From a virus: a stretch of 64,000 nt of DNA. Shown one piece after another: positions 30,822 to 44,778 of this stretch. The notes beneath the pieces are model-generated. The model saw nothing but the letters and a program-made list of their open reading frames with translations, made no database searches and was not told the DNA's origin. Position 1 is the first letter of the stretch, and each line of letters begins with the position of its first letter. A program made the translations under genes and the position numbers. Location: IMG/VR virus record IMGVR_UViG_3300023202_000137, positions 26,758 through 90,757 of that record; one strand, given 5' to 3'.

Positions 30822-32021
30822 TCAGTAGTCCCGCTGCTTGGCGTTCATGTCGTGGGGCCAAACTACATCCCCAGTGTCTTTCTTCGTCACGCTCTCCCCG
30901 GTGGGGGTTTGCGACGATGGAAGACCAACGCCATTCTTCAAGGACTCGATCTCCTCGCGTTGCTTCTCAATGGTTTTGTTCTGCTTGGAGACCTTCTTCT
31001 TGAGGTCGCGCATCTCATCCAGACTTTCCTGGAGTTGGTCCGCAACCTTGGTGAGATCGGCCAACCCCGGAATGTCCCGCATGATACGAGCTGCATCCGA
31101 AACCGCGCTGTCATCAGGCTGCTCACCTGACCCAACGTTCGGGCCCTTGGTATTCGGAGCATCTTGGGGGGCTTTCTTTGCTTCGGATACGACTTCTTTC
31201 ATCGTACCGAAAAGCTCCTTTAGCTCCTGCATCCACTGACCTCTGGCCTTGCTTGTGCCTTCCCGATTGTCGCTGTTGCCGTCATCGCTTCGCCCTTCAA
31301 CGAGCGAAGGATCACCGCCACGACTTTCGAGTACGGCGTCGGCATGTCGCTCCAGGTGCCGACGCGCTGCAGCCAACTCATCCTCGGGCAAGTCGGATTT
31401 CTCCAACGCCTTGAGAGATCGCTTCAACGCCTCAACGTCCAGAGTTTCATGCTCGTTCGGGTCACCCACATCGGAACTGTGGTGACGGAAGAAACGCGTG
31501 GCTGCATCCTCACCCTTCGCAGTCTTCACAACTGCAAAGGCAGAGTCGGGAAACTTCTTCTGCGCCTTCGCCTTCTTCTTCTTCTTATTCTTCTTGCCTT
31601 TGTCTTTGCTGTAGGTGGTGTCATCGTCGTCGTCATCGTCGTCGTCCTGTTTGACGATGCCTGACTTGGACACCACACGGATGGCATCCCCTATATCCTT
31701 GGCTAGTTCCTCGGGAATTGAAGCACTCGTGTCGTCAATCTGTGCAGACTTCACAATTTCTTGGATGCCCTGCAGGCGACTCAGGGTTTTGCCGACGGCT
31801 TCGAGGATGGACTCGCGTGACTCAGTGCTGAGTGCGAGCGCGCTCTGGGCACTGAAGCTGCCGTCATCGTTCTCAACGATCTCGGGAGCAACGTTGCCGC
31901 GCTTTGTGAGAATGAACTTGCGCTTGTTTGCGGCGCGATCTACGAGGCTCACCTCTTCGGTTTCGATGTCTTCGAGTCGATGTAGCCCGTCGCCATCGGA
32001 CCGTGCTTTTCGAATTGTCAC
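30822..32021 (-). CDS. Capsid scaffolding protein
   Basis: N-terminal EVSLVDRAAN protease-like strand, D/K low-complexity tract, internal FPDSAFA...RHLERH domain, C-terminal coiled coil and WPHDMN. Confidence 0.75.
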   Translation of the reverse strand: MTIRKARSDGDGLHRLEDIETEEVSLVDRAANKRKFILTKRGNVAPEIVENDDGSFSAQSALALSTESRESILEAVGKTLSRLQGIQEIVKSAQIDDTSASIPEELAKDIGDAIRVVSKSGIVKQDDDDDDDDDTTYSKDKGKKNKKKKKAKAQKKFPDSAFAVVKTAKGEDAATRFFRHHSSDVGDPNEHETLDVEALKRSLKALEKSDLPEDELAAARRHLERHADAVLESRGGDPSLVEGRSDDGNSDNREGTSKARGQWMQELKELFGTMKEVVSEAKKAPQDAPNTKGPNVGSGEQPDDSAVSDAARIMRDIPGLADLTKVADQLQESLDEMRDLKKKVSKQNKTIEKQREEIESLKNGVGLPSSQTPTGESVTKKDTGDVVWPHDMNAKQRDY

Positions 32022-35000
32022 GCAGCCTCCTTAACAGGTTTTCGAAGTGCGGACCCTCCGATAGAAAACCCTGTGAGATCACCTCGTTTTATCGCTCGCC
32101 AGAGTGCGTCGTCAAGAACGCGAACAGCGAGCAGCCACGTGCCCTTGCGGACCTTCGTTCCGTTCACGTTCATCTCCACTGGGGCAACGTAGCTTTCCAA
32201 GATCTTGACCTTGCTGTTGATCACCCCCTTGTGCATCAGTCCGATATTACGGAACTTCTCCATGAATTTGTGGGCGCTCTCTCGAATATCCTCTGCGCTG
32301 TAGATGTCCTTCTGGGTGTCGGGATCGAGCGGCGCGCCTTCCGTACCATCGTTTGGCTCCAGCACCACGCCAAGCACGAAGCGTTCGTCGTCGGTAGACT
32401 TCTCGGTCTTCAGCAATGGCAGCTTTTTCTGCAGGACCTCGTCAAACGCCTTCTGATCCTCTGTCTGTGCATTACCCTTGAACACTGCGCAAAGCTCATT
32501 TCCACCGAACGTGTAGCTCGCATCGGCTGCTTTGATGATAGCACCGTTCGACTCGGGAGACTCATTTGCCCAGACCAGCGCCTCCTGCAGCTCGATATCC
32601 GTACGGACCAATTGCGAGGGGGTCAGGTACACCTGCTCTGACTTCTGCAACAAATGCTCGACCTTGCGGCGTCGCTCGATATATCGCTTCGCCGTCACAT
32701 TGCCTGCACTGGGGAGGAACAGTGCGTCATGAATACCTAGGTAAGTGGTCGCGCGATCACCAGAGGTAATAAATCCGTCGAGCACAAAGTCCCCGCCCAG
32801 CTTTCGTACCTCGTTCTCGATGTCGCATCGAAGCTCCTCGCGCTTCTCGGTCTGTCGCTTCAGGATTCCAATCACACCCTTAACCCCAGCGGTCAGGGTG
32901 ATGGTTCGGAACGATCCCTCTTTGAACTCTCCGGGCTCTCGCTGACGGAACCGATAGGAATCCTCGGTTTCATCAACCTTGCCCGAAGTGAACTCATGCT
33001 CTTTCAACCAGCGTCGAGCATCGGCTTCGCTCTTGAAACGCTTTTTGTCCAAGATCAGTGTTTGCAGCGTCGTGCTTTGCTTCATGAAGATGCGCACGCG
33101 CTCGGCTCGCTTTTGCACGGAGACTTCCAGCCCATCGAGGCGTGGTTCCACGAGCATCCCACCTTGCAACGTGGTCGATGTCGCAACCTTCTGCAGAAGC
33201 TCCTCGCCGCTTGCGTACTCTGAACCCATCATGGGTTCGTAGAGTGCGAACGGTCGTAGCTGACGACGGTCCAGAGAGGGATCTGTCGAATTCGCCCAGA
33301 CCTGGAGCCCCTGACGTACCGGGACTTGCTTGATCACGGAGTAAGATTCGACGGGCTCCAACTCGGCTTTCGCCAATTCGTACTCTGCGAAGCGTTTGGA
33401 CAACTCCCCTCTGTTCTGGACTTCGTTGATGTGGCCGGGGGCAAAGCTCGCAGCACAGTCGTTGCACTCGACAACAGACAAAGAGCGACCGCCGTCCATG
33501 TGGCTTTTGCCGGTCTTGCGAACATTGAGGCTACCGCAAGGCGGGCATTCTACATGGCTGAGGTCTTCCCCGCGACGCAAGAAAACCTGCGCCGACGCTC
33601 CGCGACTCGACTTGCTAATCTCCTGGGACTCCTCTGCGACGAGAACCCAATGCCTTGATCCCGGCTCCTCTGCCTTGAGCGTGTAGATGCCTCGCATCTT
33701 TCCACGGAACCGCAGTCGGATCTCATCCTCACTTTTGCTCAAGAACTCCACAAACCCAGAGTCCACGTTTCGTACCCAGCTCTCCATGCTCTTGGTAGCA
33801 TTGAGAATCTCGCCACCGATTTGCTCGGCAGGCTTTGCCTGACCCTCGAACTTCATGAGCTTTGTGCTCTTGAGCGTGCGGCAATCCCCTGCGATGCGCT
33901 CGTGCCCCTGCAAGGGGTCGCGGTCTAGCGCCCAGGCTTGCTTTCCAATCACAAGATGCCACCGCTCTCGCGTGGGGCTGTCACCCTCTGCCGATTTCCA
34001 TTGCTGCCAAGCAATTCCGTAGGGCTTCGATGTCTCTTTGTCCTTCTGTGTTCCTGTGTCGAGGTATATTTTATGTAGGACCCGCTGGAAGTCCCCGTTA
34101 ACGACTTTCACGTTCGAGTCAGTGAAATGTCCACGCTTCACCAACTCGTCGCGCATTGCGCGAGCTTCCTCCCCACGAGCCTCCCAGTATCGCAAGGAAC
34201 TTGGCACGAGTCGTTCGAGCGAAACAGGAATTCCAGAGTACCCGTCAGGCGGCATGACTCTGGCCTTTGCTGCACGCTCGGTGAGCACGAGTGGGCGAAG
34301 GTCCGTCTGCCATTGGGACCACCACCGGGGTTTCTCGGTTTTTTGCAGCGAGAACAGCAACCGCCCCTGGAACTCTGGGTCGCCCGTAAAAAAATACTCG
34401 TGAGCCGATGGTGTCTGCAGGCCGTACTCGACCTTTAGGTCTGGATCGGTCACCCGAGATAGTACTGCGGGCTCCTCTGCAGTTGCCCCAACCTCACCTG
34501 GCTGGACCTTCTCGTGATCGAGATTTAGCCAGGCCATGGGGCTCTGCCCCTTCGGGGTAGCAGCAACCCCCTCATTCCAATCACGCTCAAAGTAAGAGCC
34601 GCTCTTTTGAAATCGTCGAGCAAATCGCCTGGCCTCCCTTACGTCTTTGACTGTCGGAACCCGACCGGGCTGGTGGTTGTCAATGGTCCACCCCACCGTC
34701 ACGTCGTCGAGCTGCAACCGGAGGTCGCCGTGCATCCCCTTGCCTATAAAATGGTACTGATAGACGGCCTGGCGCTTCCCCCTAGACTTCGGAACCAAGC
34801 ACAGCGCCTCGGCCTTAGTCACAGTGTCGATGCACTGCTGACCGTGAACCTCAGCGTCACTGGCCTGGAGGATTCGAAACTCTCCATCCCCGGGCCGTAC
34901 CTCGTGAGACTTGGGCACCAGCCATAGGTCGTACAGGCCCACCCTATTTTCAGGACCCCCGATGTCTCCACCCTCCGCTGCGGCGGTTCGACCAAACATT

Positions 35001-37294
35001 CCCTCGGGAACAAGGGATTCTATGTGAGGGGAAAGACTGGGCCCGCTCAATAGAAGGTCGATGTCACCTTTGGTGACTCCCCAGTTCGCGAGACCGCCGA
35101 CAACTGACACCGCATCACGCTCCAGAAGCACGGGTCGTAGCTGGGTCGTCACTTGATCTAGCTGAATTTCTCCGCTGTGCTCTCGGGAATTCTTTGAGTG
35201 ATGCGAGCGGCCAAACTCATCCGACGCCAGTCGCATCACTTCAGACAATGCACCCAGACCGTTGGTAACTCCCTTGCCAAGCGACTTGATAGCGTCCTGT
35301 GGAAGTTTCGACAGATGTCCGTGGAGATCTTTGACCACCTGCAGAAGATTGTGTTCCCCACACTTCGTCAGCTTTCCGGTGTTAACCGCCGAGAGATCTT
35401 TCTTCAAAGCCTCCGCGCGTCTGGGGAACGAATCAAGAAACGACACGATTGGTTGCTTGCCCTGCATGCCCGACAGCAAAGAGACGCTGCGCTTGCAGAA
35501 GCTCGGCGCGAGTACAGCGAGCTGATGTGCTAGCGACTGTGCAGACTTCAGCGATTCAACTTCATCGTCGTTCAGCTCTATGGCTTCGGGCTCTGGGTCT
35601 TTGAACTTCTCTACTTTTGAAACGCGGTACCCCCAAAGAACTTTGGATTTCGGCCACCGCTTCTCGCGCTCCTCATCAGTCAACCCATGCTCGGTCACCG
35701 TCTCGGCAAACTTCCATGTCGAGATCTTCTCTGCGGCCTCAACTTCGATGATTCCGTAGTCGGTGCTTCCGTCGGTAACCAGCACCGGGCCTTCGATGCT
35801 GTGCTTCTTTGCTTCGAGAAACATCGACACATCACCGTCGATGATCTTACGAGCGTGGTCCGGTGTCGTCTCGAATTCCAGAGCTGCTCGTCGTCGCCTT
35901 TCATCGCTTTCACGCAACGAGTGTCTTGCCTCTGCACCAGCGTCGATGAACAAATCGCTGGTGCCGAACCAATTGATCGGACCGTCCACCACCTGGCACT
36001 CGCCAACCGACCCGGTCTCCGCTCGAAGATAGAACCGGCAATTGCCGCACACCCGCTCCCGGTCGGCAGACTGCCCTAGCTCTGGGACATAATCGGCCTC
36101 GTCTTGATTGAATTTCCTACCGTTTTCCTCCACCCGCCTGATCGTCTCGTCGGCCTCCCAGCCACGGCTATTTTGGGGGGCTTGCTTGGTCGCGCGATCT
36201 CGATCTTCCTCGATGGCCTTTCGGATGTGCTCGGTTTCGGGCCCGACGTACACAAGCAACGGACTCGTGTAGCTCTTGGCTAGCTCAACGACCTCGCGAT
36301 CCATGGTATCGAACATCTCGTCGTAGCCAAGCATCGCCTTTTGCATGGGGAGTATCTCCCCCTTCTCTAGCGACTTATTTATATGGCTGTTGAGTTTCTG
36401 GAAAAACCGTTTGTAGGTTCGGATCGAAAAACGCAGTCGGTCTTCCCGCTTCAGGAAGTCAAATCCCTTGGCTTGCGCAGAGTCTCGAATTTCCTTTGGA
36501 ACTTTGTCTTTCGCGAAACCTGATACACCTGGCCAACCGTTCTTTCGAGTCGTGAGCACTTCGACGCGACCGTAGGCAGGGCCAAAGGCCCACGAGGTAA
36601 AATCAAACGAGTCAACGTGCTTCCAGAACTCTGCGTACCGCCAACTTCGGCGACCAACACCCAATAGATGCAAGTAGGTGTGGTTGTGTGTCTTGCAGAG
36701 ATCTGTACGCTTTCGACATACCTCGATAAGCTGGGTGTTCGTTGCGCTCCGATAGCTTCCCTTGCCTTTTCCCCCTTCAGAGCTTCCCCCTTTGCCGTCC
36801 TTCTTTTCTTCTTTGTCTTTGCGCGACAGCCAAAACGAATTGACCATGCCACCCCAGGCAACTTTCTTCCCGGTGCGGTAGTATTGCTTCGCGCGGTCCG
36901 TGATCTTTGTTGGGATGTGGTCAACATATATGGGGGCAACACCCAACTTCACTAGGGCTTCAAAGTTTTCGTCGGTCTTCTTTGGGCTCGACGGAACGTC
37001 GATGGGCATGAACTCTTCAACAAGTGACTTGTGAGACTTCACAAAGTCGGCGTACTCTTCGATTGATACCTTTCCCCCATGCACTGCTGCAGAAAACGCA
37101 CCCGAGTCCAGCAACACACGCACGCCGTTTAGCTCCTTGGGTAACCCTTTCTTGAAGTAGTGGTAGGAAACGAGCATCTCTCGGATGCCCTCTTCCTTGA
37201 GTATCTGGATCTGATCTTTGGCTACGGCGACGAAATACGAGTGCGGTCGCGTGCTAGGGCTTCCCGGAAGTTTGCTTACTCGTTGTCGTGGCAT
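32018..37294 (-). CDS. Multidomain (polyvalent) head protein: TGT/DpdA-like, HiPIP-like, ASCH-like, nucleotidyltransferase, LigD phosphoesterase-like x2, Zn ribbon, degenerate ATP-dependent ligase, XkdF-type prohead protease
   Basis: LLDSGAFSA/HLLG/DSFDFTSW; CGNCRFY..C.VV.G.I...G; VGGL.....GDIDLL; QYH....HGDLRL; CPPC..CNDC; EPRLDG/FVLDG/NGAIIK; VLGVVLEP...D.Q.D...AH.FM...H...GTW...TGFSIGG. Confidence 0.85.
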   Translation of the reverse strand: MPRQRVSKLPGSPSTRPHSYFVAVAKDQIQILKEEGIREMLVSYHYFKKGLPKELNGVRVLLDSGAFSAAVHGGKVSIEEYADFVKSHKSLVEEFMPIDVPSSPKKTDENFEALVKLGVAPIYVDHIPTKITDRAKQYYRTGKKVAWGGMVNSFWLSRKDKEEKKDGKGGSSEGGKGKGSYRSATNTQLIEVCRKRTDLCKTHNHTYLHLLGVGRRSWRYAEFWKHVDSFDFTSWAFGPAYGRVEVLTTRKNGWPGVSGFAKDKVPKEIRDSAQAKGFDFLKREDRLRFSIRTYKRFFQKLNSHINKSLEKGEILPMQKAMLGYDEMFDTMDREVVELAKSYTSPLLVYVGPETEHIRKAIEEDRDRATKQAPQNSRGWEADETIRRVEENGRKFNQDEADYVPELGQSADRERVCGNCRFYLRAETGSVGECQVVDGPINWFGTSDLFIDAGAEARHSLRESDERRRRAALEFETTPDHARKIIDGDVSMFLEAKKHSIEGPVLVTDGSTDYGIIEVEAAEKISTWKFAETVTEHGLTDEEREKRWPKSKVLWGYRVSKVEKFKDPEPEAIELNDDEVESLKSAQSLAHQLAVLAPSFCKRSVSLLSGMQGKQPIVSFLDSFPRRAEALKKDLSAVNTGKLTKCGEHNLLQVVKDLHGHLSKLPQDAIKSLGKGVTNGLGALSEVMRLASDEFGRSHHSKNSREHSGEIQLDQVTTQLRPVLLERDAVSVVGGLANWGVTKGDIDLLLSGPSLSPHIESLVPEGMFGRTAAAEGGDIGGPENRVGLYDLWLVPKSHEVRPGDGEFRILQASDAEVHGQQCIDTVTKAEALCLVPKSRGKRQAVYQYHFIGKGMHGDLRLQLDDVTVGWTIDNHQPGRVPTVKDVREARRFARRFQKSGSYFERDWNEGVAATPKGQSPMAWLNLDHEKVQPGEVGATAEEPAVLSRVTDPDLKVEYGLQTPSAHEYFFTGDPEFQGRLLFSLQKTEKPRWWSQWQTDLRPLVLTERAAKARVMPPDGYSGIPVSLERLVPSSLRYWEARGEEARAMRDELVKRGHFTDSNVKVVNGDFQRVLHKIYLDTGTQKDKETSKPYGIAWQQWKSAEGDSPTRERWHLVIGKQAWALDRDPLQGHERIAGDCRTLKSTKLMKFEGQAKPAEQIGGEILNATKSMESWVRNVDSGFVEFLSKSEDEIRLRFRGKMRGIYTLKAEEPGSRHWVLVAEESQEISKSSRGASAQVFLRRGEDLSHVECPPCGSLNVRKTGKSHMDGGRSLSVVECNDCAASFAPGHINEVQNRGELSKRFAEYELAKAELEPVESYSVIKQVPVRQGLQVWANSTDPSLDRRQLRPFALYEPMMGSEYASGEELLQKVATSTTLQGGMLVEPRLDGLEVSVQKRAERVRIFMKQSTTLQTLILDKKRFKSEADARRWLKEHEFTSGKVDETEDSYRFRQREPGEFKEGSFRTITLTAGVKGVIGILKRQTEKREELRCDIENEVRKLGGDFVLDGFITSGDRATTYLGIHDALFLPSAGNVTAKRYIERRRKVEHLLQKSEQVYLTPSQLVRTDIELQEALVWANESPESNGAIIKAADASYTFGGNELCAVFKGNAQTEDQKAFDEVLQKKLPLLKTEKSTDDERFVLGVVLEPNDGTEGAPLDPDTQKDIYSAEDIRESAHKFMEKFRNIGLMHKGVINSKVKILESYVAPVEMNVNGTKVRKGTWLLAVRVLDDALWRAIKRGDLTGFSIGGSALRKPVKEAA

Positions 37295-38006
37295 CGTCTA
37301 CACCATACTCCATGGAGCCCTGTTTCAGAACCGCCTTTCGGATGGCTCCAATAGACTTCCCTTTGGCGGCGGTGGGGTTGGCGTACCTATCATTCTCCCA
37401 GACCTGTGCCGAGTCAGAGTACGCTCGTATCTCCCAAAAACCCAGCTTGTGTTTGGTCAGAAACTCTAGGCCGGTGACCCACTTGCAGCTCTTATACTGC
37501 CACAAATGGGGCGGTGCGATGTAGCGCAGAGGAAACCCGTGGGCCGGGGATAGCGGCTTGCCCTTGTACCCATAGGCCAGGATTCCCTGCAGGAAATCCT
37601 CGACCCATAGGCAGGTGCTGAACTCGTCGAGACCGTGGACAAGAACCGTCGTCACGCTGTCATGAGGATTCACCAGGTCAACAATGTGGGCTGCTGGAAC
37701 CCCCTGCCATTCTGTGTCGAACAGGGACCACCCAGTGATGCAATGGAAGTCCTGCTGAATCTTTGTTTCGGGCCATAGATCCATCATCTCCCGGAGTGAC
37801 ACTTCGAACGGGTTTTCGATCTCTCCCCACCCCTGGAGCTTCCATTTCTCGGGCTCGTTTATCTTTGGGATCGAAGCGTACTCAAGATGCGGGAACTTTT
37901 TTGCGAGCGTCTGCCCTGACGGGGTTCGCTTTCGCCGCGTATCTAGGTCGTAATCCTTCGGATCAAACTCATCCCCCGCAGGGTCAGCGCCTAAGTCGAT
38001 CTTCAT
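37254..38006 (-). CDS. Molybdopterin-dependent oxidoreductase, sulfite oxidase family (cytoplasmic YuiH-like)
   Basis: DFHCITGWS with the Mo-ligating Cys, W.GV, HGFPLR...P.L..YKS.KWV..LEF, GFWE..AY; no Tat signal. Confidence 0.92.
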   Translation of the reverse strand: MKIDLGADPAGDEFDPKDYDLDTRRKRTPSGQTLAKKFPHLEYASIPKINEPEKWKLQGWGEIENPFEVSLREMMDLWPETKIQQDFHCITGWSLFDTEWQGVPAAHIVDLVNPHDSVTTVLVHGLDEFSTCLWVEDFLQGILAYGYKGKPLSPAHGFPLRYIAPPHLWQYKSCKWVTGLEFLTKHKLGFWEIRAYSDSAQVWENDRYANPTAAKGKSIGAIRKAVLKQGSMEYGVDDATTTSKQTSGKP

Positions 38007-38294
38007 TTACTTCACTCGGTGGGCTATTTCGCGAGCTGTCAGAAAAAACAAAGGCCGCTCAACGATGAATTCCAAAACAATTGCCACCCACAAGTCCACC
38101 CCTAGGTACTCAACGAGCAGGTAAAGAATAGGCGCACGCACCAGCAGCCACGGGGATGAGAGTGGATACCACACCAAAAGCTGCTTCATGGTCGAGCTTC
38201 CACTCCAGGTTCCGCCACGAACAAATAGATAGGCAACCAGCATTGCAACAAACAAGGCAGCAGTAATGCCCTGGATAATCACTGCGGCGCTCAT
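38007..38294 (-). CDS. Small membrane protein, GtrA-like
   Basis: 95 aa with about three hydrophobic helices; ILYLLVEYLGVDLWVA resembles GtrA C-terminal helices. Confidence 0.5.
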   Translation of the reverse strand: MSAAVIIQGITAALFVAMLVAYLFVRGGTWSGSSTMKQLLVWYPLSSPWLLVRAPILYLLVEYLGVDLWVAIVLEFIVERPLFFLTAREIAHRVK

Positions 38295-39205
38295 GCCAAA
38301 TCGTTTTCTAGCGTAGTCACGATGTCGTGTGCCAGGTGGCTGTCTTCCGATACCGCCTTGACCTTGCAGTTGATGACTTTGCCGTCGGGGACAAACTCTG
38401 CAGTGATGCCTCGCAGAATCTTCTGTACCCGGACAGCACCGTCCTCGGTAAAGGTAGGGCCAGCGTAGGACTTCAGCACCTGCACGACTTCATCTGGGAT
38501 CTTCATGTTCGACATAACCGGCACGAGTCGGCCAGTCACCTCACGCATGATGGGGGCGAACACCACGGGTGCGTCAGTGATCAACTCAATGTCGATGTGC
38601 GTACGCTGCGTGTGGGACTGCTTGCCGTCTGTTTCAAAAAGAACGAATGGGCAAACCGTGAACACTGTCGTTCGAAGGTGGAAAAGGTAGTGGCCCTGTT
38701 TTAGATCTGGATCAATCCTGTCGCTCAGCTCGTAACCAATGCCGATGCTCCAAGGCAGTGTTGAGGGGATGCCAGTGCAATGGGCTTTGAGCTTCGAAGA
38801 AATCTTTGAGCGCGCCATGACACGGAACTTGGAGCCATGGTGCGCGTCACGCAGATTCTCTGCGGCGAGCTTTGCCCACTCCCATGCCGGTACCGCTTCG
38901 TCGGCTTTCTCTGTCTTGAGAGTATCCCGTGCAAACTCCATCGAGGATATCATTCGATTCATGTGCGCTTTGACTCTGGTTACCCGCGCCAGGATATCGC
39001 ACTTTGGCATAGTGAACAGGTGGGCCTCTTTGCCGTCGTACACCTTGAACAGACCTGACAGGTAGTAGTTCACCATGTCTACGTCGAGCGGGTAATCGAC
39101 TGGGATCTCCGGTCCGTCCTCATCCCAACCCGTGCCGTATGACTCTACGGCTTCTTTCCATTGGGCAACGAGCTTGCCGTACTTCTCTTCCTGCTCCTTA
39201 TCCAT
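38291..39205 (-). CDS. folE2: Divergent GTP cyclohydrolase, FolE2/MptA family
   Basis: HMNR (HMSR), TVCP (TxCP), SHTQR (AHxQR), KIPDE (KRxDE), PTFTED (PxFVED), EDSHLAHD (ESIHxH), in the canonical order. Confidence 0.8.
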   Translation of the reverse strand: MDKEQEEKYGKLVAQWKEAVESYGTGWDEDGPEIPVDYPLDVDMVNYYLSGLFKVYDGKEAHLFTMPKCDILARVTRVKAHMNRMISSMEFARDTLKTEKADEAVPAWEWAKLAAENLRDAHHGSKFRVMARSKISSKLKAHCTGIPSTLPWSIGIGYELSDRIDPDLKQGHYLFHLRTTVFTVCPFVLFETDGKQSHTQRTHIDIELITDAPVVFAPIMREVTGRLVPVMSNMKIPDEVVQVLKSYAGPTFTEDGAVRVQKILRGITAEFVPDGKVINCKVKAVSEDSHLAHDIVTTLENDLA

Positions 39206-39698
39206 TCTGATCCTCTGTCTCTGGCCTGCTACGAAGCCATGCCTCCACAGCGTCTCGGTCCTCGCGGGCAGCGACGCTCACGCCATCCAACGTCCAGCTA
39301 TCCCAAGACAGCACGGGTTTCTTGTTGTCGAGGGCATAGGCCATCTCCTGCAGAGTCCCGAGTCGACCCGGCAAGGCTAGAACAATGTCAGCCGACAGTG
39401 GTGTGATCATGTTGCGAGCAAAGCCAATGCCCGTCGCGATCACGATGTCGATATGGTCGTTTGCGTCTTTGATACAGGAGCCCGGAAGAACTCCAATAGA
39501 AACGCCGCCCGCAGCTTTTGCACCACGGGCGGCGTGGCTCATTACACCTGATAGTCCACCGGTCAGAACATGGTAGCCCGCTTCAACAGCCGCCGCCCCA
39601 GCGTAAAACGCCATGTCGGCAACCTCATCAGACCACTTTGGGCCCCAACCTTTGGTGCCGATGATTGCACACACCGGCACTCGTTCCTTTGAGGGCAT
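39198..39698 (-). CDS. LOG/SLOG family protein (TIGR00725-like)
   Basis: TGGLSGVM..AARGA..AGG..IGVLPG, TGIGFARN, PGRLGTLQE (PGxxGTxxE). Start taken at the ATG after GGAGGGG; the track's TTG start is 39716. Confidence 0.9.
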   Translation of the reverse strand: MPSKERVPVCAIIGTKGWGPKWSDEVADMAFYAGAAAVEAGYHVLTGGLSGVMSHAARGAKAAGGVSIGVLPGSCIKDANDHIDIVIATGIGFARNMITPLSADIVLALPGRLGTLQEMAYALDNKKPVLSWDSWTLDGVSVAAREDRDAVEAWLRSRPETEDQNG

Positions 39699-39711
39699 CT
39701 GCCCCTCCATC

Positions 39712-39740
39712 GCCAACTCTAGTGTTGGCCTGTACCTGTT
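39712..39740 (-). promoter_or_regulatory. Intergenic motif AACAGGTACAG, copy 4, plus 6-bp hairpin
   Basis: Motif at 39730-39740 followed on the minus strand by GCCAAC-ACTAGA-GTTGGC; heads the SLOG-FolE2 cassette. Confidence 0.55.
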
Positions 39741-39749
39741 GCGCTGAGT

Positions 39750-40583
39750 TTAGGAGCCGCGCAGCTCTGGGGGATCGTCACCGAACGAACGGTAATCGTT
39801 GCCACCGTCGCTCTTGTTGACTTGGCCCCACTTCTCCGTGTCGGTGCGACTACGGCCAGTGTTCATGTCCGAAGGCCATCGAACGTCGTCGTTGGACTTC
39901 TTGAGCTTTGCGATTTCCGCATCGCGAGACTTGGCACGACGCTTTCGTTTTTCGTCGTCGCTCTCTTCGTCCTCGCCGTTTTCTTTGCGGCGCTTGGCCT
40001 CTTTCTTGTCTTCCTCTTTCTGATCCGCGCGGCGCTTGTCCTTCTCCTCGTCGCTCTCATCAGGAAGACCAGCAGCCTTGCGGCGCTTGGACTCTTCTTT
40101 GTCCTCTTCCTCCTCCATCTCCTCTTGCTTGGCCTTGGCTTTGAGTCGTCGTTCCTTCTCTTTCTCTTCCTCCTCGTCGGCCTTCTTGCCTTTGCCCTCG
40201 TCGTCGTCTTCGCCAAAGGGCTTGGCTTTCTTGAGATCGGTCACGACTTCGGTGAGCTTCTCCACTGCATCGGTGAGCTTGCGCGTGCTCTCGGTGAAGT
40301 CGCCTTCGTTCCGATGCTGCGCAGGATCCCGGGTTACGCTCACCTTCACCACCTCAGCGTCGGGATCATCTTCGAGCTGCTTGCCTACCGACTCGATGTT
40401 TTGCTGAAGTGCTTCGATGCGAGATTCATCTTGCTCTTTGATCGCATCGGCCAACTCATCCTTGGCGTAGGCTTGGAACTTCTCCAGACTCATCGTCTTC
40501 TCGACGCGACCCTTGCCCTTTGCCAATGCTCCCTTTGCTTGCTTTGTCAGTGACTCCAGCATGCCGGTGAACTTATCGCTCAT
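39750..40583 (-). CDS. Highly charged scaffold-like/internal head protein
   Basis: E/K/D/R-rich repeats (EEDKEESKRRK, EEDKKEAKRRK) and a WPSDMN motif shared with the scaffold. Confidence 0.65.
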   Translation of the reverse strand: MSDKFTGMLESLTKQAKGALAKGKGRVEKTMSLEKFQAYAKDELADAIKEQDESRIEALQQNIESVGKQLEDDPDAEVVKVSVTRDPAQHRNEGDFTESTRKLTDAVEKLTEVVTDLKKAKPFGEDDDEGKGKKADEEEEKEKERRLKAKAKQEEMEEEEDKEESKRRKAAGLPDESDEEKDKRRADQKEEDKKEAKRRKENGEDEESDDEKRKRRAKSRDAEIAKLKKSNDDVRWPSDMNTGRSRTDTEKWGQVNKSDGGNDYRSFGDDPPELRGS

Positions 40584-40589
40584 GGTGTT

Positions 40590-40928
40590 TCACTCCGTTG
40601 TTGGGGCTGAAGCCCACATGGTTCTCTGGTTGGGTACGTACGGCACCCCGTCCAGCTCAGCCCGAAGCGCCATTGGCATTTCATCGAGCGTTCGCTGTAG
40701 CGAGTATCCCATATCACCCCGCAACACTCTAAACCAGTTTGTCAGAATCTCGAAGCGTCGTCGCATCTCCGAGTTGCTGACCTGTATTTCGCGCGACCTC
40801 GATTTCCTTGCATCCTCTTTGAATGAGTCAAAGAGCATGCCCTCGATGCGTTGCGTGACAGTGGCTAGCTGCTCTGGTGAATTCAGGAACTCCGCAAAGG
40901 AGCCGCGTTTGATGACTTCAACACCCAT
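40590..40928 (-). CDS. Hypothetical protein
   Basis: 112-aa ORF in the head operon. Confidence 0.6.
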   Translation of the reverse strand: MGVEVIKRGSFAEFLNSPEQLATVTQRIEGMLFDSFKEDARKSRSREIQVSNSEMRRRFEILTNWFRVLRGDMGYSLQRTLDEMPMALRAELDGVPYVPNQRTMWASAPTTE

Positions 40929-40952
40929 CGAGCGCGACTGTAGTTCATTGGA

Positions 40953-42326
40953 CTACGTTTCCGCAACCGTAGTCGTGCGGCAAAGGCCGTGGTACGGGGG
41001 GGCACCTATGCGATTTCCCTCCAGGTTGCGTCCAGCGCTCGTGGTGGAGTAGTTGCCAGCGCTCTGAGTCCCCAATCCGGTCTTGTTTACCTCAAACAGC
41101 CTGGTTCCGTTGGCCTGCCAAAAGGTGCGCCCATCGCTGGTAGTCTCGGTCGTTGCCCATGGGTTGGCAGCCTTCATGGTGTCCACGCTCCCGGCTTTCT
41201 CGGCGTCCTCCATGATGCTGATAGATCGCTCCACGTCGATGACTCGACCATCCACCCACCTGCAGAAATCGGTGGTCGCCTCATCTTGGACCGCTACGGC
41301 TACGAACTTTGTGATCCCTGCATCCACGTAGGAACTCAGCTCTGCCCGGGACCTAGAGCGATCAACCAAAGCAGCAGCGTACACACGGAAGTAGGATTCG
41401 GTCCGGCCTGAGACCCTGTTTCGGAACTCCCCTAAAAGGTCTTCCGATATTTGCCCACGCCCCAGTCCTTCTTCCAGGCCACGCTCTACAATTTCACGAG
41501 CACGACCCTCGAACTGGGACGCCCGTACACCGTACTCGTTGGTCAACCAGGTTACAGAGGTCTGCTGCGCTGCACGCAAAGACTCTCGGTCTGCAGATGT
41601 CAGGCTCACGTTGATGTCGAAACGATGTCGCTCGATGGCAGCACGTCGCGCACCCTTCATGGTTCGCTCGCCTTCACGTTCAATGACGCCTCGAATCCCA
41701 CGCACCGCGCGTACCGGTACCTCTTCGATCCGTGCCGATGCTTGCCGTATGAGATTGTTCCGTCGCCTGGCGTTCATCCCTGGCCAGTCGGAATCAATAA
41801 ACCGTCGAGCTGCTCGTATCTGCGCCCTCTCGTTCTTGCCAGCGACTCCCACCATGGCGTCAGCGGCCTGGCGTACAATCAAGGCTCTGTTGCGAGATTT
41901 GCTAGGATCGAGAATTCGCTTGGCCTTTTCAACAGGAAACAGAATTTCCTCGGCTGCCTCGATGGCCTTGGTCAGCATTTTCTCGGTGGAGGCTCGTCGT
42001 AGTTTCTCGATCCCTTGGTAGAGTATCTGCTCGCCAACCATACAGACTGCTTTGCCGACGATGATTTCCTCACCAGTCTCCGCAACTATCATTGACGCAA
42101 CTCTCTGCAGATTATCCAGACTCTCCCCCGGGGCGCCCCGGGTAAACTTCTCACCGCATACGAGCACGTACCCTTTGGCTACTCCTGGGTTTTCAGGCGG
42201 ACGCCACCCCATTGCACGCATAGCGATGTCGCATCGGTCGCCAAGGTCGAGGTTTGGGCCAACGTTGAAAAAGCCCGTGAAGGGTACGGGTTCAACCGAA
42301 AATACTGTTTCAGGAACTTCGCACAT
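40953..42326 (-). CDS. MuF-like minor head protein (SPP1 gp7 family)
   Basis: AV.DE.TT.FCR.VDGR and PPYHGLCRTT; follows the portal. Confidence 0.88.
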   Translation of the reverse strand: MCEVPETVFSVEPVPFTGFFNVGPNLDLGDRCDIAMRAMGWRPPENPGVAKGYVLVCGEKFTRGAPGESLDNLQRVASMIVAETGEEIIVGKAVCMVGEQILYQGIEKLRRASTEKMLTKAIEAAEEILFPVEKAKRILDPSKSRNRALIVRQAADAMVGVAGKNERAQIRAARRFIDSDWPGMNARRRNNLIRQASARIEEVPVRAVRGIRGVIEREGERTMKGARRAAIERHRFDINVSLTSADRESLRAAQQTSVTWLTNEYGVRASQFEGRAREIVERGLEEGLGRGQISEDLLGEFRNRVSGRTESYFRVYAAALVDRSRSRAELSSYVDAGITKFVAVAVQDEATTDFCRWVDGRVIDVERSISIMEDAEKAGSVDTMKAANPWATTETTSDGRTFWQANGTRLFEVNKTGLGTQSAGNYSTTSAGRNLEGNRIGAPPYHGLCRTTTVAET

Positions 42327-42579
42327 TGGACAGGACTATAGGGGACCGCTCTCGACCTTGCACTTCGATTCCACGCTCGGTGGCTCGGATGACAATCTCA
42401 TTTCTAGCCGTGCAGTCGTCGCAGATCCCATAGAGAAGGTACCCGTTGCGCCATACCGTCATTGCCCGGTCTATCGGCCCCAATACCTTGCATTTTCTGC
42501 AGCAAAGCACCTCTTGGGCGGCTTCCTGCTGGGCTTCCTCTGCCCAAGCCTTTCCATCACTCTCGGTCAATGAACTCAT
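42310..42579 (-). CDS. Small Zn-finger protein
   Basis: CRKC...CDDC; overlaps both neighbours. Confidence 0.5.
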   Translation of the reverse strand: MSSLTESDGKAWAEEAQQEAAQEVLCCRKCKVLGPIDRAMTVWRNGYLLYGICDDCTARNEIVIRATERGIEVQGRERSPIVLSNVRSS

Positions 42580-44488
42580 CCATCTGGTCGGGGGTTACCT
42601 CGATCACTATGGTTTCCCCCCCGTTCTCTTCCCGGTCACGTCGCAACTGTTCGATCTCTTCCTTCTGCAGCGACGAGGTAAGGCTGGAGCGGATACGAAG
42701 CAGCATTTGAGCGACCTCGCTCATTCCATCGCTCGTGATTGATGGGATCTTGGGCTGCTTACCTTGGGCGGGCTTCAATCGTCCACCGCTGTCCAGGTCC
42801 CCGCTCGTCGTGTCGCCCTTTTCTTCGTCGATGCGGCGTGCGCTCGGAGAAGACTCTTGCCCGGTCTGAATTCCAGCGAGAGTGAAGCTCAACGGCTGCT
42901 TGGTCCAGTCGTCTTTGATGATCTCAAACTCGCGGTTGAATATATCCCCCGCGAGCATTCGAGATTCTGCTGGTACGAGCACCCCTTGTTTGGTCAGCTC
43001 TGCAACGAGCTTGCCCATTGTCTCGGGGTCCCGACTGACGGGGCTGTTCGATTGGTAGCGCCAAAACTTTGCGTTCAGCTCTGGCATGATTCGATTGTTT
43101 ACAAAGAAATCGAAGTCGTCACGCTCTGGCTGAAAGACTTGCTCCTCTGCCATACGCAGTGCGGCCAGCGCAGTTGCCCGGTTGAAGTCTCGCGACTCCC
43201 CCCGAAGCAAACGAGGTACTCGAAACGACGACCCAACCTTGTCAATGTTGTTCTGATCGTACTCCTGGAAGAGCCCATCCTTGTGTTGAGCATCGAGCAA
43301 GGGCTTGATCTCGATCATCGGGCGCTGTGGGCTCGGCCCTTCGGTCCGGTTGTTGGGGGCAACCGCTTCGAGCACCATGATCTTGTGAAAATTTCGCTTT
43401 CCTTTGATCTGGTTCTCAATGAAGTTCTCAATGCGAGGCACTGAGCTTTTGCTGAGACGGCCACCGGACACAAGTACCGCCATCGGGGGTACGGTCTTGT
43501 TCTCGAAGTAGAAAAAGTTCACCTCTTCAGCAGATCGAGACCCCAGAACCGAGATCAATACACCGATCCAGCGCGGCACCCCATAAGGAGAACGCGAGCT
43601 TTCGATTTTGAAATGGATCATCTCGTTGGCTGGCTGCGCGGTCTCGCCCTCTTTCTTTCGCAGCTCCTCCATGTTGCTGAAGAAGTGCCCGGTGGTGCGT
43701 GATACGATTCGTGGGTCGCCAAACTCTTTGAAGAAAACGGGCGTACCTGTTTCTGCTAATTGAACGTAGGTGCGGAACTGCTTGGTGATGTTGACGGTGC
43801 CAAACGTTATTGGAGAAATCTGCACCCGCTCTTTCACGGTCATCGGCTGCGGGTTTATCCCGCGCAGACGTACCGTCCAAGAGGGCACGTAGACAAAGCG
43901 AGCAATCGACCCAGCATTGTTGCGGAGGATTTCCCAATAGGCGTTTCCTGTGACCTCAAGATCTTGTCTCGTGATCTTGCGCAGCTTTGGAAAGCTCATG
44001 TCCTGGGCGACGAACCTGAAAAATGCTTGGACTTTGGATTTCTCTATGCGCGACCCTAGCTTGAGTGCCTTGGCTCGGTTCTCGATTTCCTCATCGGTCG
44101 GCTTCAGGTCATCCAGCTCAGCCTCCGTGATGTCGAACCCCTCCTTTGCCAGTCGCTCCATAATAATGGAGTCAGCTATTTTTTCGTTGGCGTCTTCTGC
44201 ATCGAGATCAATTGCCGCTTCGAGCCGGTGACCGAAGGCATCTATGTTGACCGCGTAGGCATCGACGTTTGGTCGCAGGCTATTGCTGATCTCGAACAAC
44301 CCAGCCAGAGTTTCTGGGTCGTGCGGGGGCTCGATTGCTCCAGACTTGTTGAATACAGACTCGCGGTCCTCTGGCTGTTGCTGCGACGACTGCAAAGGAA
44401 TACCGCTGGGTTCTGATCCCACGGTGAACGCCTTGCTGAGTACCTCTCGGTTACGCTCAACGACTGACTGTTTGCTTTTGTTGCTCAC
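42557..44488 (-). CDS. Portal protein (PBSX-like)
   Basis: DLEVTGNAYWEILR, NEMIHFK, YGVPRWI, N..YFEN..VP, FRVP.LL.G..DFNRATA, VFQPE. Confidence 0.93.
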   Translation of the reverse strand: MSNKSKQSVVERNREVLSKAFTVGSEPSGIPLQSSQQQPEDRESVFNKSGAIEPPHDPETLAGLFEISNSLRPNVDAYAVNIDAFGHRLEAAIDLDAEDANEKIADSIIMERLAKEGFDITEAELDDLKPTDEEIENRAKALKLGSRIEKSKVQAFFRFVAQDMSFPKLRKITRQDLEVTGNAYWEILRNNAGSIARFVYVPSWTVRLRGINPQPMTVKERVQISPITFGTVNITKQFRTYVQLAETGTPVFFKEFGDPRIVSRTTGHFFSNMEELRKKEGETAQPANEMIHFKIESSRSPYGVPRWIGVLISVLGSRSAEEVNFFYFENKTVPPMAVLVSGGRLSKSSVPRIENFIENQIKGKRNFHKIMVLEAVAPNNRTEGPSPQRPMIEIKPLLDAQHKDGLFQEYDQNNIDKVGSSFRVPRLLRGESRDFNRATALAALRMAEEQVFQPERDDFDFFVNNRIMPELNAKFWRYQSNSPVSRDPETMGKLVAELTKQGVLVPAESRMLAGDIFNREFEIIKDDWTKQPLSFTLAGIQTGQESSPSARRIDEEKGDTTSGDLDSGGRLKPAQGKQPKIPSITSDGMSEVAQMLLRIRSSLTSSLQKEEIEQLRRDREENGGETIVIEVTPDQMDEFIDRE

Positions 44489-44778
44489 TGCGTACGAGTG
44501 TTGCGACCGTAGATGTTGATCTCGGGTGCCGTACCCAAAGTCGAAACGTTCACACGAAGAAACGCAGCTAGGTCGGTGATAGCTGTATTGCTGACAGGCC
44601 CCGTCGTGGAAGCCACTGCCTCAAACCAGTTGCTTCCATCTAGGGAGGCCTCGACTGTGAAATCGAACCCAGCCCCCCCGACAACTTGCAGCGTTTTCTC
44701 GGTCAGGTCTTGGACGTTGAGCGCTTCCCCTGGACCACTAGATCCAGGATAGCGAAGTTTCACACGTTCAAATCGCAT
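44485..44778 (-). CDS. Small beta-rich virion protein
   Basis: VEASLDGSNWF...FLRVNV jelly-roll-like pattern. Confidence 0.55.
   Translation of the reverse strand: MRFERVKLRYPGSSGPGEALNVQDLTEKTLQVVGGAGFDFTVEASLDGSNWFEAVASTTGPVSNTAITDLAAFLRVNVSTLGTAPEINIYGRNTRTQ

What the first reader, a model, noticed from the sequence alone, without database searches (positions are those of the whole stretch)
36370..39740. Candidate new nucleobase-modification pathway: SLOG + FolE2 + GtrA-like + molybdoenzyme + TGT/DpdA-like, inserted in the head module
Seen: five coding units abut or overlap (39198/39205, 38291/38294, 38006/38007, 37254/37294). They follow their own copy of the AACAGGTACAG motif and sit between MuF and the scaffold/capsid genes. 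Established: FolE/FolE2 opens GTP as step 1 of pterin and 7-deazaguanine synthesis; TGT-fold DpdA enzymes exchange guanine in DNA for a free base; LOG enzymes release free bases from nucleoside monophosphates; sulfite-oxidase-family Mo enzymes catalyse oxygen-atom transfer. Known phage deazaguanine clusters use QueD/QueE/QueC, and none is recognisable in this window. Inference: this may be a Que-independent route in which a GTP-derived product is freed by LOG, redox-tailored by the Mo enzyme and inserted into DNA or tRNA by the TGT-like domain. I know of no described phage system pairing these families.
Basis: partly seen in the sequence, partly recalled or inferred. Interest (0 to 1): 0.92.

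Follow-up and report, generated by a model that had tools for sequence, protein, structure and literature searches.

The report
Phage guanine-analogue cassette beside DpdA
An uncultivated phage carries four tightly packed genes (a LOG-type base-releasing enzyme, a divergent GTP ring-opening enzyme, a small membrane protein and a molybdenum enzyme) next to a DNA guanine-swapping enzyme, and the same set recurs in two unrelated phages. It probably makes a new, non-queuosine-type guanine substitute for phage DNA, perhaps 8-azaguanine.

Summary
On the minus strand, SLOG/LOG (39198-39716), a divergent FolE2-like T-fold protein (38291-39205), a conserved 95-aa membrane protein (38007-38294; the GtrA call is below Pfam's threshold) and a sulfite-oxidase-fold Mo protein (37254-38006) overlap or abut. 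They run into a 1758-aa polyprotein with an N-terminal DpdA/TGT-fold domain and a C-terminal XkdF prohead protease.

The 90.7-kb record (87% complete) has no QueC, QueD, radical-SAM or Pfam TGT match.

All five families recur together in two other phage-like contigs, in different gene orders and with very divergent DpdAs:
- L007 adds a YhhQ-type transporter.
- L012 inserts a nitric oxide synthase and an Hmp-like globin between the membrane protein and the Mo protein.

FolE2-like and Mo are a rare pair found essentially 1:1 (about 30 members each). Bacteria also hold the pair, together with SLOG, NUDIX and ring-opening hydrolases.

A GTP-cyclohydrolase-like enzyme plus NOS plus a LOG-like nucleosidase is the published signature of 8-azaguanine biosynthesis. 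My best reading is a Que-independent route from GTP to a C8-replaced guanine analogue, freed by SLOG and inserted by DpdA. The chemistry is untested. I rate it a new variant of a known kind, of high interest. This scan earlier noted a different SLOG-containing DpdA-linked operon on other DNA.

The parts
39730..39740 (-). AACAGGTACAG intergenic motif directly upstream of the cassette. Candidate phage-specific promoter or processing signal.
   Evidence: four coding-strand copies, each between a stop codon and the next start. No sigma-70-like promoter was found in 31500-41500.
39198..39716 (-). SLOG/LOG-like nucleotide N-glycosidase (172 aa from the TTG start; an ATG lies at 39710). Inferred role: releases the free modified base from its nucleoside 5'-monophosphate.
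   Evidence: PF18306 at 6.4e-34. Below-cut-off NCBIfam matches to TIGR00725 and to cytokinin riboside 5'-monophosphate phosphoribohydrolase. TGGxxGVM, RN and PGxxGTxxE are invariant in six cassette SLOGs.
38291..39205 (-). FolE2-like (GTP cyclohydrolase IB-like) T-fold protein, a divergent subfamily. Inferred role: opens the imidazole ring of GTP and removes C8.
   Evidence: PF02649 at 33.7 bits. Far below the FolE2 and MptA equivalog cut-offs. Aligns to FolE2 structure 3d2o with the CP...HxQRxH and PDE motifs kept. 31 homologues form a tight family.
38007..38294 (-). Conserved 95-aa protein with about three membrane helices, specific to the phage form of the cassette. Function unknown; possibly a membrane anchor or electron or substrate access.
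   Evidence: GtrA hit below threshold. Orthologues sit between FolE2-like and Mo in L001, L007, L008 and L012 at 45-60% identity.
37254..38006 (-). Cytoplasmic single-domain sulfite-oxidase-fold molybdoenzyme. Inferred role: nitrate/nitrite-type oxygen-atom transfer that supplies or installs the atom replacing C8.
   Evidence: PF00174 at 1.8e-29. The Cys in HCITGWS aligns with the Cys of YedY's RCVEAWS, which I recall as the Mo ligand. HGFPLR aligns with the plant sulfite oxidase motif. Foldseek top hits are SorA, YedY and nitrate reductase. No signal peptide by inspection.
36305..37294 (-). DpdA/TGT-fold guanine transglycosylase domain (residues 1-330 of the polyprotein). Inferred role: exchanges guanine in DNA for the free base made by the cassette.
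   Evidence: phrog_887 at 1.5e-21. AF2 model pLDDT 85.5. Foldseek PDB top hits are all tRNA-guanine transglycosylases, 2.4e-8. DSG, LD, HxxG and SxD motifs are invariant in 25 relatives.
32018..36304 (-). Remainder of the 1758-aa polyprotein: weak ligase-like and other domains, ending in an XkdF-type prohead protease (about 32048-32407).
   Evidence: PF14550 at 2.2e-25 over residues 1630-1749. The same DpdA ... ligase or methyltransferase ... XkdF architecture occurs in P0041, P0048, P0052, P0057 and P0062.

Best explanation
The four small genes plus the DpdA-like domain form one DNA base-replacement system that does not use the queuosine/preQ0 enzymes.

Inferred steps:
1. The FolE2-like enzyme opens the imidazole ring of GTP and removes C8, as GTP cyclohydrolases do, but does not go on to a pterin.
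2. Its obligate neighbour, the sulfite-oxidase-fold Mo enzyme, performs an oxygen-atom-transfer step on a nitrogen oxyanion (nitrate to nitrite, or nitrite to a nitrosating species or NO). This lets the vicinal diamine re-close with a new atom at position 8, giving an 8-aza-type guanine nucleotide.
3. Host (or, in bacteria, NUDIX) pyrophosphatases give the monophosphate.
4. The LOG-like SLOG enzyme cleaves the glycosidic bond and frees the base.
5. DpdA swaps the base for guanine in phage DNA.

Shown here: gene anatomy, family and fold membership, conserved catalytic motifs, absence of Que genes, and repeated independent co-occurrence. Inferred: every chemical step, the identity of the base, and DNA as the target.
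For: 1. All five families sit together in three phage-like contigs with three gene orders:
- Window: SLOG-FolE2L-TM-Mo-DpdA.
- L007: DpdA-...-SLOG-FolE2L-TM-Mo-...-YhhQ.
- L012: FolE2L-TM-NOS-globin-Mo-SLOG-DpdA.

2. FolE2L, TM and Mo are 46-73% identical among the three contigs, while the DpdAs are only about 27-35% identical over partial lengths. The cassette has therefore joined different DpdA lineages independently.

3. In the window it lies in the head module, an odd place for a metabolic gene, directly against the DpdA domain.

4. The domain is a true DpdA relative. It has the TGT fold and the catalytic Asp motifs. 33 of 50 viral records that hold relatives of it also hold QueC, including 4 of the 5 nearest. 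This record has none of QueC, QueD or radical SAM, and 0 of 79 other DpdA loci carry the cassette. The cassette therefore stands where Que genes normally stand.

5. FolE2L and Mo are an obligate pair. They are adjacent in every locus long enough to show it. The Mo family drops sharply from 52% to 34% identity beyond that set.

6. L012 inserts a NOS oxygenase (4.6e-91, RCIGR heme-Cys motif) and an Hmp-like globin (2.5e-20) inside the operon. That ties the core to NO, nitrate or nitrite.

7. Published precedent (PMC7109123): 8-azaguanine is made by a GCH-I-like enzyme that removes C8, a NOS that supplies N8, triazole closure with NO or nitrite, and a LOG-like 8-azaGMP nucleosidase with a conserved Arg/Glu pair. 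The cassette SLOGs keep that Arg/Glu pair, and the bacterial clusters add a NUDIX, matching PtnD's pyrophosphatase. GCH-I enzymes are described as gateways to azanucleosides (PMC13749301).

8. Sulfite-oxidase-family Mo enzymes reduce nitrate (nitrate reductase) and nitrite to NO (PMC7615749, PMC10420851).

9. 'DpdA-only' phages with no known base are a recognised open group (PMC6884629).
Against: - There are no biochemical data of any kind.
- NOS and globin occur in only one locus. NOS also needs a pterin cofactor, which a true GTP cyclohydrolase I could help supply.
- FolE2L passes Pfam's FolE2 threshold and keeps the core motifs, so it may simply make dihydroneopterin triphosphate.
- The Mo model also resembles the Mo-free pterin-binding protein PruR.
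- 8-Azaguanine is nearly isosteric with guanine, so its value against restriction is not obvious.
- L007 carries a YhhQ-type transporter, known for preQ0 import, which fits ordinary 7-deazaguanine salvage.
- The record is 87% complete, so Que genes could lie in the missing part.
- The DpdA-XkdF polyprotein is common without the cassette.
- Only three loci have enough flank to test co-occurrence.
Confidence: 0.5

Rival explanations
1. Booster of ordinary 7-deazaguanine modification. FolE2L is a normal GTP cyclohydrolase I that feeds the host's QueD/QueE/QueC, or preQ0 is imported. DpdA inserts preQ0 or a derivative. SLOG and Mo salvage or tailor the 7-deazaguanine.
For: - FolE is the first enzyme of the preQ0 route and is often phage-encoded (PMC6884629).
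- FolE2L passes Pfam's FolE2 cut-off and keeps the core motifs.
- L007 has a YhhQ/Vut_1 transporter next to the cassette.
- Relatives of this DpdA usually travel with QueC.
Against: - FolE2L is a small, divergent family (28 bits to solved FolE2; far below the equivalog cut-offs) that is always paired with the Mo protein. That holds in bacteria too, among ring-opening hydrolases and without Que genes.
- No role for a Mo enzyme, or for NOS and globin, is known in 7-deazaguanine chemistry (PMC10516641 has no mention of molybdenum).
Confidence: 0.15
2. Pterin-centred module unrelated to DpdA. FolE2L makes a neopterin-type pterin. The sulfite-oxidase-fold protein binds or uses that pterin, as PruR does. 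In L012 the module supplies the pterin cofactor of NOS.
For: - Foldseek matches of the Mo model to PruR-neopterin structures, 4.7e-7.
- Bacterial NOS needs a pterin (general knowledge).
- FolE2L and this protein are always adjacent.
Against: - The protein keeps the Cys that aligns with the YedY Cys I recall as the Mo ligand, and the HGFPLR motif. It matches full Mo enzymes better than PruR (1.7e-11).
- A LOG-type N-glycosidase has no substrate in pterin chemistry.
- This reading does not explain three independent associations with DpdA.
Confidence: 0.12
3. Antimetabolite or host-takeover cassette. The genes make a toxic guanine analogue (8-azaguanine-like) or manipulate host nucleotide pools, and the analogue is not inserted into DNA. 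Adjacency to DpdA reflects shared nucleotide-metabolism neighbourhoods.
For: - 8-Azaguanine is an antibiotic made by a parallel gene set (PMC7109123).
- Bacteria hold FolE2L, Mo, SLOG and NUDIX without DpdA.
- L007 and L012 place the genes among DNA-metabolism genes.
Against: - In the window the cassette is in the head module, pressed against the DpdA domain.
- DpdA is within one or two genes in all three testable phage loci, although DpdA is rare among phages.
- The released product is a free base, exactly what a transglycosylase needs.
Confidence: 0.1
4. Stress-repair auxiliary genes. An MsrP/YedY-like reductase with a membrane partner repairs oxidised methionine or detoxifies sulfite or N-oxides during infection, and the other genes are unrelated neighbours.
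For: - The best NCBIfam name is MsrP, far below cut-off (41.8 against 207 bits).
- JGI names homologues 'YedYZ catalytic subunit'.
- A small membrane protein is adjacent, loosely like MsrQ.
Against: - There is no signal peptide, whereas MsrP is periplasmic.
- The membrane protein has no conserved histidines for haem.
- The gene is strictly coupled to FolE2L, including in bacteria that lack the membrane protein.
Confidence: 0.05

Closest known systems
Phage 7-deazaguanine DNA modification systems (FolE-QueD-QueE-QueC plus DpdA1-4; PMC6884629, PMC10516641)
   Same: A DpdA-family transglycosylase with the TGT fold and the catalytic Asp motifs. A GTP-cyclohydrolase-type first enzyme. A YhhQ-type transporter in one relative (L007). 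The logic of making a free base and swapping it for guanine.
   Different: No QueD, QueE or QueC. Instead there are a LOG-type glycosidase, a divergent FolE2-like protein, a membrane protein and a sulfite-oxidase-fold Mo enzyme, none reported in those systems. Here DpdA is the N-terminus of a prohead-protease polyprotein.
8-Azaguanine biosynthetic cluster ptnABCDEF of Streptomyces (PMC7109123, PMC7674941)
   Same: GTP-cyclohydrolase-I-like C8 removal, a LOG-like nucleoside-monophosphate nucleosidase with a conserved Arg/Glu pair, NOS as nitrogen source (present in L012), and a pyrophosphatase (NUDIX in the bacterial clusters).
   Different: PtnA is of the FolE (IA) type, not the FolE2 (IB) type. 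PtnB is a small iron protein, not a Mo enzyme. There is no transglycosylase, and the product is exported as an antibiotic. I could not fetch the Ptn proteins, so homology to them was not tested here.
Azacitidine cluster (AzaE GTP cyclohydrolase I plus AzaA cupin dioxygenase; PMC13749301)
   Same: A GCH-I-type enzyme diverted to a triaminopyrimidine instead of a pterin. The bacterial FolE2L clusters also carry a bicupin dioxygenase and amidohydrolases.
   Different: The phage cassette has no cupin. There is no Mo enzyme in the aza cluster. The aza product is a triazine nucleoside.
Sulfite-oxidase-fold molybdoenzymes: YedY/MsrP, SorA/SorT, assimilatory nitrate reductase Mo domain
   Same: Same fold, the Cys that aligns with the YedY Cys I recall as the Mo ligand, and the HGFPLR motif.
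   Different: Single 250-aa cytoplasmic domain with no dimerisation, haem or signal sequence. A discrete family of about 30 members, always next to FolE2L. All equivalog cut-offs are missed by a wide margin.
PruR pterin-binding proteins (PDB 7rkb, 7kom)
   Same: Same fold class, and a link to GTP-cyclohydrolase-derived pterins.
   Different: PruR is about 140 aa and is described as a pterin binder. This protein keeps the Cys and HGFPLR motifs typical of Mo enzymes and matches Mo enzymes better.

Membership tests
SLOG/LOG superfamily (PF18306 SLOG cluster 4) | Profile match above Pfam's gathering score | tested here: met
   117.2 bits against a cut-off of 26.3
SLOG/LOG superfamily (PF18306 SLOG cluster 4) | LOG motifs GGGxGxM and PGGxGTxxE with the catalytic Arg and Glu | tested here: met
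   TGGxxGVM, RN and PGxxGTxxE are invariant in six cassette SLOGs. The roles of Arg and Glu are as stated for LOG and PtnC in PMC7109123.
GTP cyclohydrolase IB (FolE2, PF02649) | Profile match above Pfam's gathering score | tested here: met
   33.7 bits against 25. 3d2o is the best solved match.
GTP cyclohydrolase IB (FolE2, PF02649) | Isofunctional (equivalog) membership of FolE2, MptA or GCH-IV | tested here: not met
   22-26 bits against cut-offs of 215-468. It forms a separate family of about 31 members with its own invariant motifs.
GTP cyclohydrolase IB (FolE2, PF02649) | Product is 7,8-dihydroneopterin triphosphate | not testable with these tools
   Needs an enzyme assay or folE complementation.
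Sulfite-oxidase-fold molybdoenzymes (PF00174) | Profile match, fold, Mo-ligand Cys and HGFPLR Moco motif | tested here: met
   103 bits against 24. Foldseek: SorA 1.7e-11, YedY and nitrate reductase. The Cys aligns to the Cys of YedY's RCVEAWS, which I recall as the Mo ligand. HGFPLR aligns to plant sulfite oxidase. The model is of moderate quality (pLDDT 65).
MsrP/YedY (periplasmic methionine sulfoxide reductase) | Equivalog score, Tat signal peptide, MsrQ haem partner | tested here: not met
   41.8 bits against a cut-off of 207. No hydrophobic signal region. The neighbouring membrane protein lacks conserved His.
GtrA-like membrane proteins (PF04138) | Profile match above the gathering score | tested here: not met
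   19.2 bits against 26.1. 95 aa with about three helices.
TGT/DpdA transglycosylases | TGT TIM-barrel fold | tested here: met
   Model pLDDT 85.5. The top 50 listed PDB matches are all archaeosine or bacterial TGT, best 2.4e-8.
TGT/DpdA transglycosylases | Catalytic Asp motifs (DSGxF and SxD(S/F)) and base-binding LD | tested here: met
   D63-S64-G65, D99, H209 and S229-x-D231 are invariant in 25 relatives. Assigning these motifs to catalysis rests on my knowledge of TGT and DpdA.
TGT/DpdA transglycosylases | Pfam TGT (PF01702) match | tested here: not met
   No match in the record. phrog_887 and phrog_7068 do match, as is usual for phage DpdA.
Canonical phage 7-deazaguanine system | QueD, QueE and QueC present with DpdA | tested here: not met
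   None in the 90.7-kb record. The record is 87% complete, so the absence is not absolute.
8-Azaguanine (ptn-type) pathway | GCH-I-like enzyme, NOS or nitrite source, and LOG-like nucleosidase in one operon | tested here: inconclusive
   All three are present in L012. The window has the GCH-like and LOG-like genes but no NOS. Homology to the Ptn proteins was not tested, and the product is unknown.

The most novel reading that the evidence does not exclude
These phages replace guanine in their DNA with 8-azaguanine, or another guanine whose C8 has been swapped out. The base is built from GTP by a FolE2-like ring opener working hand in hand with a sulfite-oxidase-fold molybdoenzyme. That enzyme uses nitrate or nitrite (supplied in one phage by its own NOS and globin) to install N8, acting as an enzymatic triazole synthase. 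A LOG-type enzyme then frees the base and DpdA inserts it. This would be the first triazole base in natural DNA, the first Mo-dependent step in nucleobase modification, and an answer for at least some 'DpdA-only' phages.
Probability: 0.25. Interest if true: 0.95.

Novelty: new variant of a known kind. Interest (0 to 1): 0.8.

Why it matters
DpdA is treated as the signature of 7-deazaguanine DNA. Yet the largest group of DpdA phages has no synthesis genes, and at least one has no detectable deazaguanine (PMC6884629).

This cassette is a concrete, transferable candidate for a second supply route to DpdA, built from families never linked to DNA modification. If it holds:
- It adds a new natural DNA base.
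- It gives a function to a rare FolE2-like/Mo enzyme pair that bacteria also use.
- It may supply the missing enzymatic N-N bond-forming step of azapurine biosynthesis.
- It offers a new handle for restriction-resistant or labelled DNA.

The gene set is small enough (about 2.5 kb plus a 330-aa domain) to test directly in E. coli.

Tried and rejected
I could not fetch the Logan contigs of the other phage-type FolE2L homologues (P0003-P0029), and co-occurrence rests on three loci.

Searches that led nowhere:
- Megablast of 32000-44500 against GenBank phages: no match.
- tblastn of FolE2L against phages: no match. For Mo, one weak 22% hit.
- The word-indexed search with the DpdA domain found nothing. 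The HMMER library search did.
- phmmer of the DpdA domain against PDB sequences gave only noise. The fold search was needed.
- The Burroughs 2015 SLOG paper is not held.
- Pfam on hand-picked ORFs of the high-GC loci L004 and L005 gave almost nothing, probably because the frames were wrong.
- NOS is not found near the bacterial clusters. One of five genomes has a fragmentary hit elsewhere.
- The 277-aa gene upstream (39750-40583) has no family and only viral hypothetical look-alikes, so I left it out of the cassette.
- The apparent 346-aa ORF in L007 (4857-5897) overlaps DpdA and looks like an out-of-frame artefact.

Readings rejected:
- GtrA membership: below threshold.
- MsrP membership: no signal peptide, and the score is far below cut-off.
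- Chance adjacency: three gene orders, divergent DpdAs, and 0 of 79 other DpdA loci carrying the cassette.

Full report
**What is there.** The window is the right-hand 64 kb of a 90,757-base IMG/VR virus record (CheckV completeness 87%). Its genes are almost all on the minus strand. Between 39716 and 32018 lie five ORFs with no room between them:
- a 172-aa SLOG/LOG protein,
- a 304-aa FolE2-like protein,
- a 95-aa membrane protein,
- a 250-aa sulfite-oxidase-fold Mo protein,
- a 1758-aa polyprotein.

Pfam supports SLOG cluster 4 (6.4e-34), FolE2 (33.7 bits, cut-off 25) and Oxidored_molyb (1.8e-29). The GtrA hit of the small protein is below threshold.

The polyprotein has no Pfam TGT match. 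It does hit PHROG 'queuine tRNA-ribosyltransferase' families over residues 32-419, and it ends in an XkdF-type prohead protease. Upstream are the portal and a MuF-like protein. Downstream are a scaffold-like protein and the major head protein.

The AACAGGTACAG motif is real. There are 6 near-matches against 0.66 expected. Four coding-strand copies each sit between a stop codon and the next start, one of them right before SLOG. No sigma-70-like promoter and no excess of terminators occur in the region.

**Are the family calls sound?**

*DpdA-like domain.* Modelled with 24 relatives, it folds confidently (pLDDT 85.5). The top 50 listed matches in the PDB are all tRNA-guanine transglycosylases. 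DSG, LD, HxxG and SxD are invariant across relatives. An exhaustive HMMER search finds 561 relatives. Many are ordinary 250-300-aa phage DpdA-like proteins. About thirty have this domain at the N-terminus of long proteins that carry ligase or methyltransferase domains and end in an XkdF protease. So the polyprotein architecture is a recurrent class in its own right.

*Mo protein.* It keeps the Cys of HCITGWS, which aligns with the Cys of YedY's RCVEAWS that I recall as the Mo ligand. It also keeps the HGFPLR motif of sulfite oxidases. A moderate-quality model matches SorA, YedY and nitrate reductase best, and, more weakly, the pterin-binding PruR proteins. It has no signal peptide.

*FolE2-like protein.* It aligns to solved FolE2 with CP...HxQRxH and PDE preserved. 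It falls far below the NCBIfam equivalog cut-offs for FolE2, MptA and GCH-IV.

*SLOG.* It keeps the LOG motifs and the Arg/Glu pair.

**Que genes.** QueC, PTPS/QueD, radical SAM and Pfam TGT give no match anywhere in the record. The rest of the genome encodes a primase-helicase, a nuclease, MoxR/VWA proteins, an amidoligase and a lysis amidase.

**Relatives elsewhere.** The FolE2-like protein has only about 31 homologues among 5.8 billion clustered proteins, and none in GenBank phages. The Mo protein has about 29 close homologues (52-69% identity), then a gap to 34%. Fourteen of them share contig lengths with FolE2L homologues. In every fetched locus long enough to show it, the two genes are adjacent.

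There are two forms.

*Bacterial form* (MAG contigs L002-L005, L009-L011, L014). FolE2L is 365 aa with a Cys/His-rich insert, and there is no membrane protein. The pair sits in a conserved cluster with:
- SLOG and NUDIX,
- a RutB/biuret-hydrolase-like isochorismatase-family hydrolase,
- a hydantoinase/allantoinase-like amidohydrolase,
- an aminotransferase,
- a gentisate-dioxygenase-like bicupin,
- sometimes a formamidase.

This form is sporadic: 3 of 101 genomes sampled in one order.

*Phage form.* It has the membrane protein between FolE2L and Mo.
- L001, L015 and L018 show FolE2L-TM-Mo followed by the small and large terminase subunits.
- L008 shows SLOG-FolE2L-TM.
- L007 shows ThyX, SbcC, a standalone DpdA (phrog_887 at 7.5e-36), SLOG, FolE2L, TM, Mo and a YhhQ/Vut_1 transporter.
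- L012 shows FolE2L, TM, a nitric oxide synthase oxygenase domain (4.6e-91, with the RCIGR haem-Cys motif), an Hmp-like globin (2.5e-20), Mo, a SLOG homologue and a DpdA-like protein with DSGCFS, LD, HALGVS and SSDSSS motifs. These are followed by a sliding clamp and an SNF2 helicase.

**Linkage to DpdA.** All three phage loci with enough flank carry DpdA within one or two genes of the cassette, in three different orders. FolE2L, TM and Mo are 46-73% identical among them. The DpdAs are barely alignable, at 27-35% over partial lengths. The cassette has therefore been combined with different DpdA lineages more than once.

Conversely, none of 79 other IMG/VR loci with DpdA-like genes carries the cassette. 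33 of 50 of those records have QueC, including 4 of the 5 nearest relatives of this domain. The cassette thus occupies the functional slot that Que genes fill in related phages. In the window it does so in the head module, where a metabolic cassette has no other obvious reason to be.

**Mechanism.** The published 8-azaguanine pathway (PMC7109123) works as follows:
- a GTP-cyclohydrolase-I-like enzyme removes C8 of GTP;
- NOS provides N8;
- the triazole closes from the vicinal diamine with NO-derived species or nitrite;
- a pyrophosphatase-domain protein is also encoded in the cluster, and the paper attributes pyrophosphate release to host enzymes;
- a LOG-like nucleosidase with a conserved Arg/Glu pair frees the base from 8-azaGMP.

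L012 holds the same triad (cyclohydrolase-like, NOS, LOG-like) in one operon. The bacterial clusters add the NUDIX. A second recent pathway, azacitidine (PMC13749301), again starts from a diverted GTP cyclohydrolase I and uses a cupin, and the bacterial clusters have a cupin too.

Sulfite-oxidase-family Mo centres reduce nitrate (assimilatory nitrate reductase) and nitrite to NO (PMC7615749, PMC10420851). NOS plus an Hmp-type globin would give nitrate.

I therefore propose this sequence. FolE2L opens GTP. The Mo enzyme delivers the nitrogen, either by making nitrite or NO or by nitrosating the diamine directly. SLOG frees the base. DpdA inserts it. Every chemical step here is inference. The strict FolE2L-Mo pairing would make sense if an unstable diamine intermediate has to be handed over.

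**Weak points.**
- NOS and globin occur in one locus only, and NOS needs a pterin.
- FolE2L may be an ordinary cyclohydrolase.
- The Mo fold also binds pterins (PruR).
- 8-Azaguanine is nearly isosteric with guanine, so its protective value is unclear.
- YhhQ in L007 fits preQ0 salvage.
- 13% of the genome may be missing.

**Novelty and verdict.** Neither of the two main phage deazaguanine papers mentions FolE2 or molybdenum. No paper in the library links 8-azaguanine to phage DNA modification or describes a FolE2/sulfite-oxidase gene pair.

This scan earlier noted a different SLOG-containing, DpdA3-linked operon on other DNA. I did not test that note, but it suggests that LOG-type base release next to DpdA may be a wider theme.

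I rate this a new variant of a known kind (DpdA-mediated guanine replacement with a new supply pathway). Confidence is 0.5 for the general mechanism and about 0.25 for 8-azaguanine specifically. Interest is 0.8.

Noticed in passing
window 32018-37294 (minus strand); relatives P0041, P0048, P0052, P0057, P0062: DpdA-like domains fused, through ligase, methyltransferase or other domains (one relative carries an intein with a LAGLIDADG endonuclease), to a C-terminal XkdF prohead protease. This is a recurrent phage architecture, with short DpdA-XkdF forms of about 440-580 aa as well. It suggests that DpdA and DNA-repair domains are targeted to the procapsid or released by the protease.
   Followed up: partly
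L012:1545-2931: A phage-like contig (DNA polymerase I fragment in L013, sliding clamp, SNF2 helicase) encodes a nitric oxide synthase oxygenase domain and an Hmp-like single-domain globin inside the cassette. I know of no described phage-encoded NOS.
   Followed up: partly
window 3175-3185, 19323-19333, 28774-28784, 39730-39740 (minus strand): AACAGGTACAG recurs in short intergenic gaps right after a stop codon and 9-38 nt before the next start. There are no sigma-70-like promoters nearby. It is a candidate phage-specific promoter or RNA-processing site.
   Followed up: partly
L002:2152-15855 and the matching parts of L003-L005, L009-L011: A conserved bacterial cluster of FolE2-like, Mo, SLOG, NUDIX, RutB/biuret-hydrolase-like, hydantoinase-like, aminotransferase, bicupin dioxygenase and formamidase genes (plus a carbamoyltransferase in L002). 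It looks like an undescribed GTP-derived azanucleobase or purine ring-opening pathway.
   Followed up: partly
G000 bases 19394-25146 (L017:1394-7146), left of the window: MoxR-type AAA ATPase, a VWA protein, DUF6744 and an Amidoligase_2 protein sit in a row, an unexplained module in the same phage.
   Followed up: no
L084:5295-5942 and L085:9175-9822: YhhQ-like transporter genes lie within a few kb of DpdA-like genes in two other viral contigs. This agrees with the literature that some DpdA phages carry YhhQ.
   Followed up: no
bacterial FolE2-like proteins, alignment A1 columns about 120-165: The bacterial form has a roughly 60-aa insert rich in Cys and His (for example C-T-H-x-H) that the phage form lacks. 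The phage form instead has the separate 95-aa membrane protein. These may be alternative ways to bind a metal or receive electrons.
   Followed up: no
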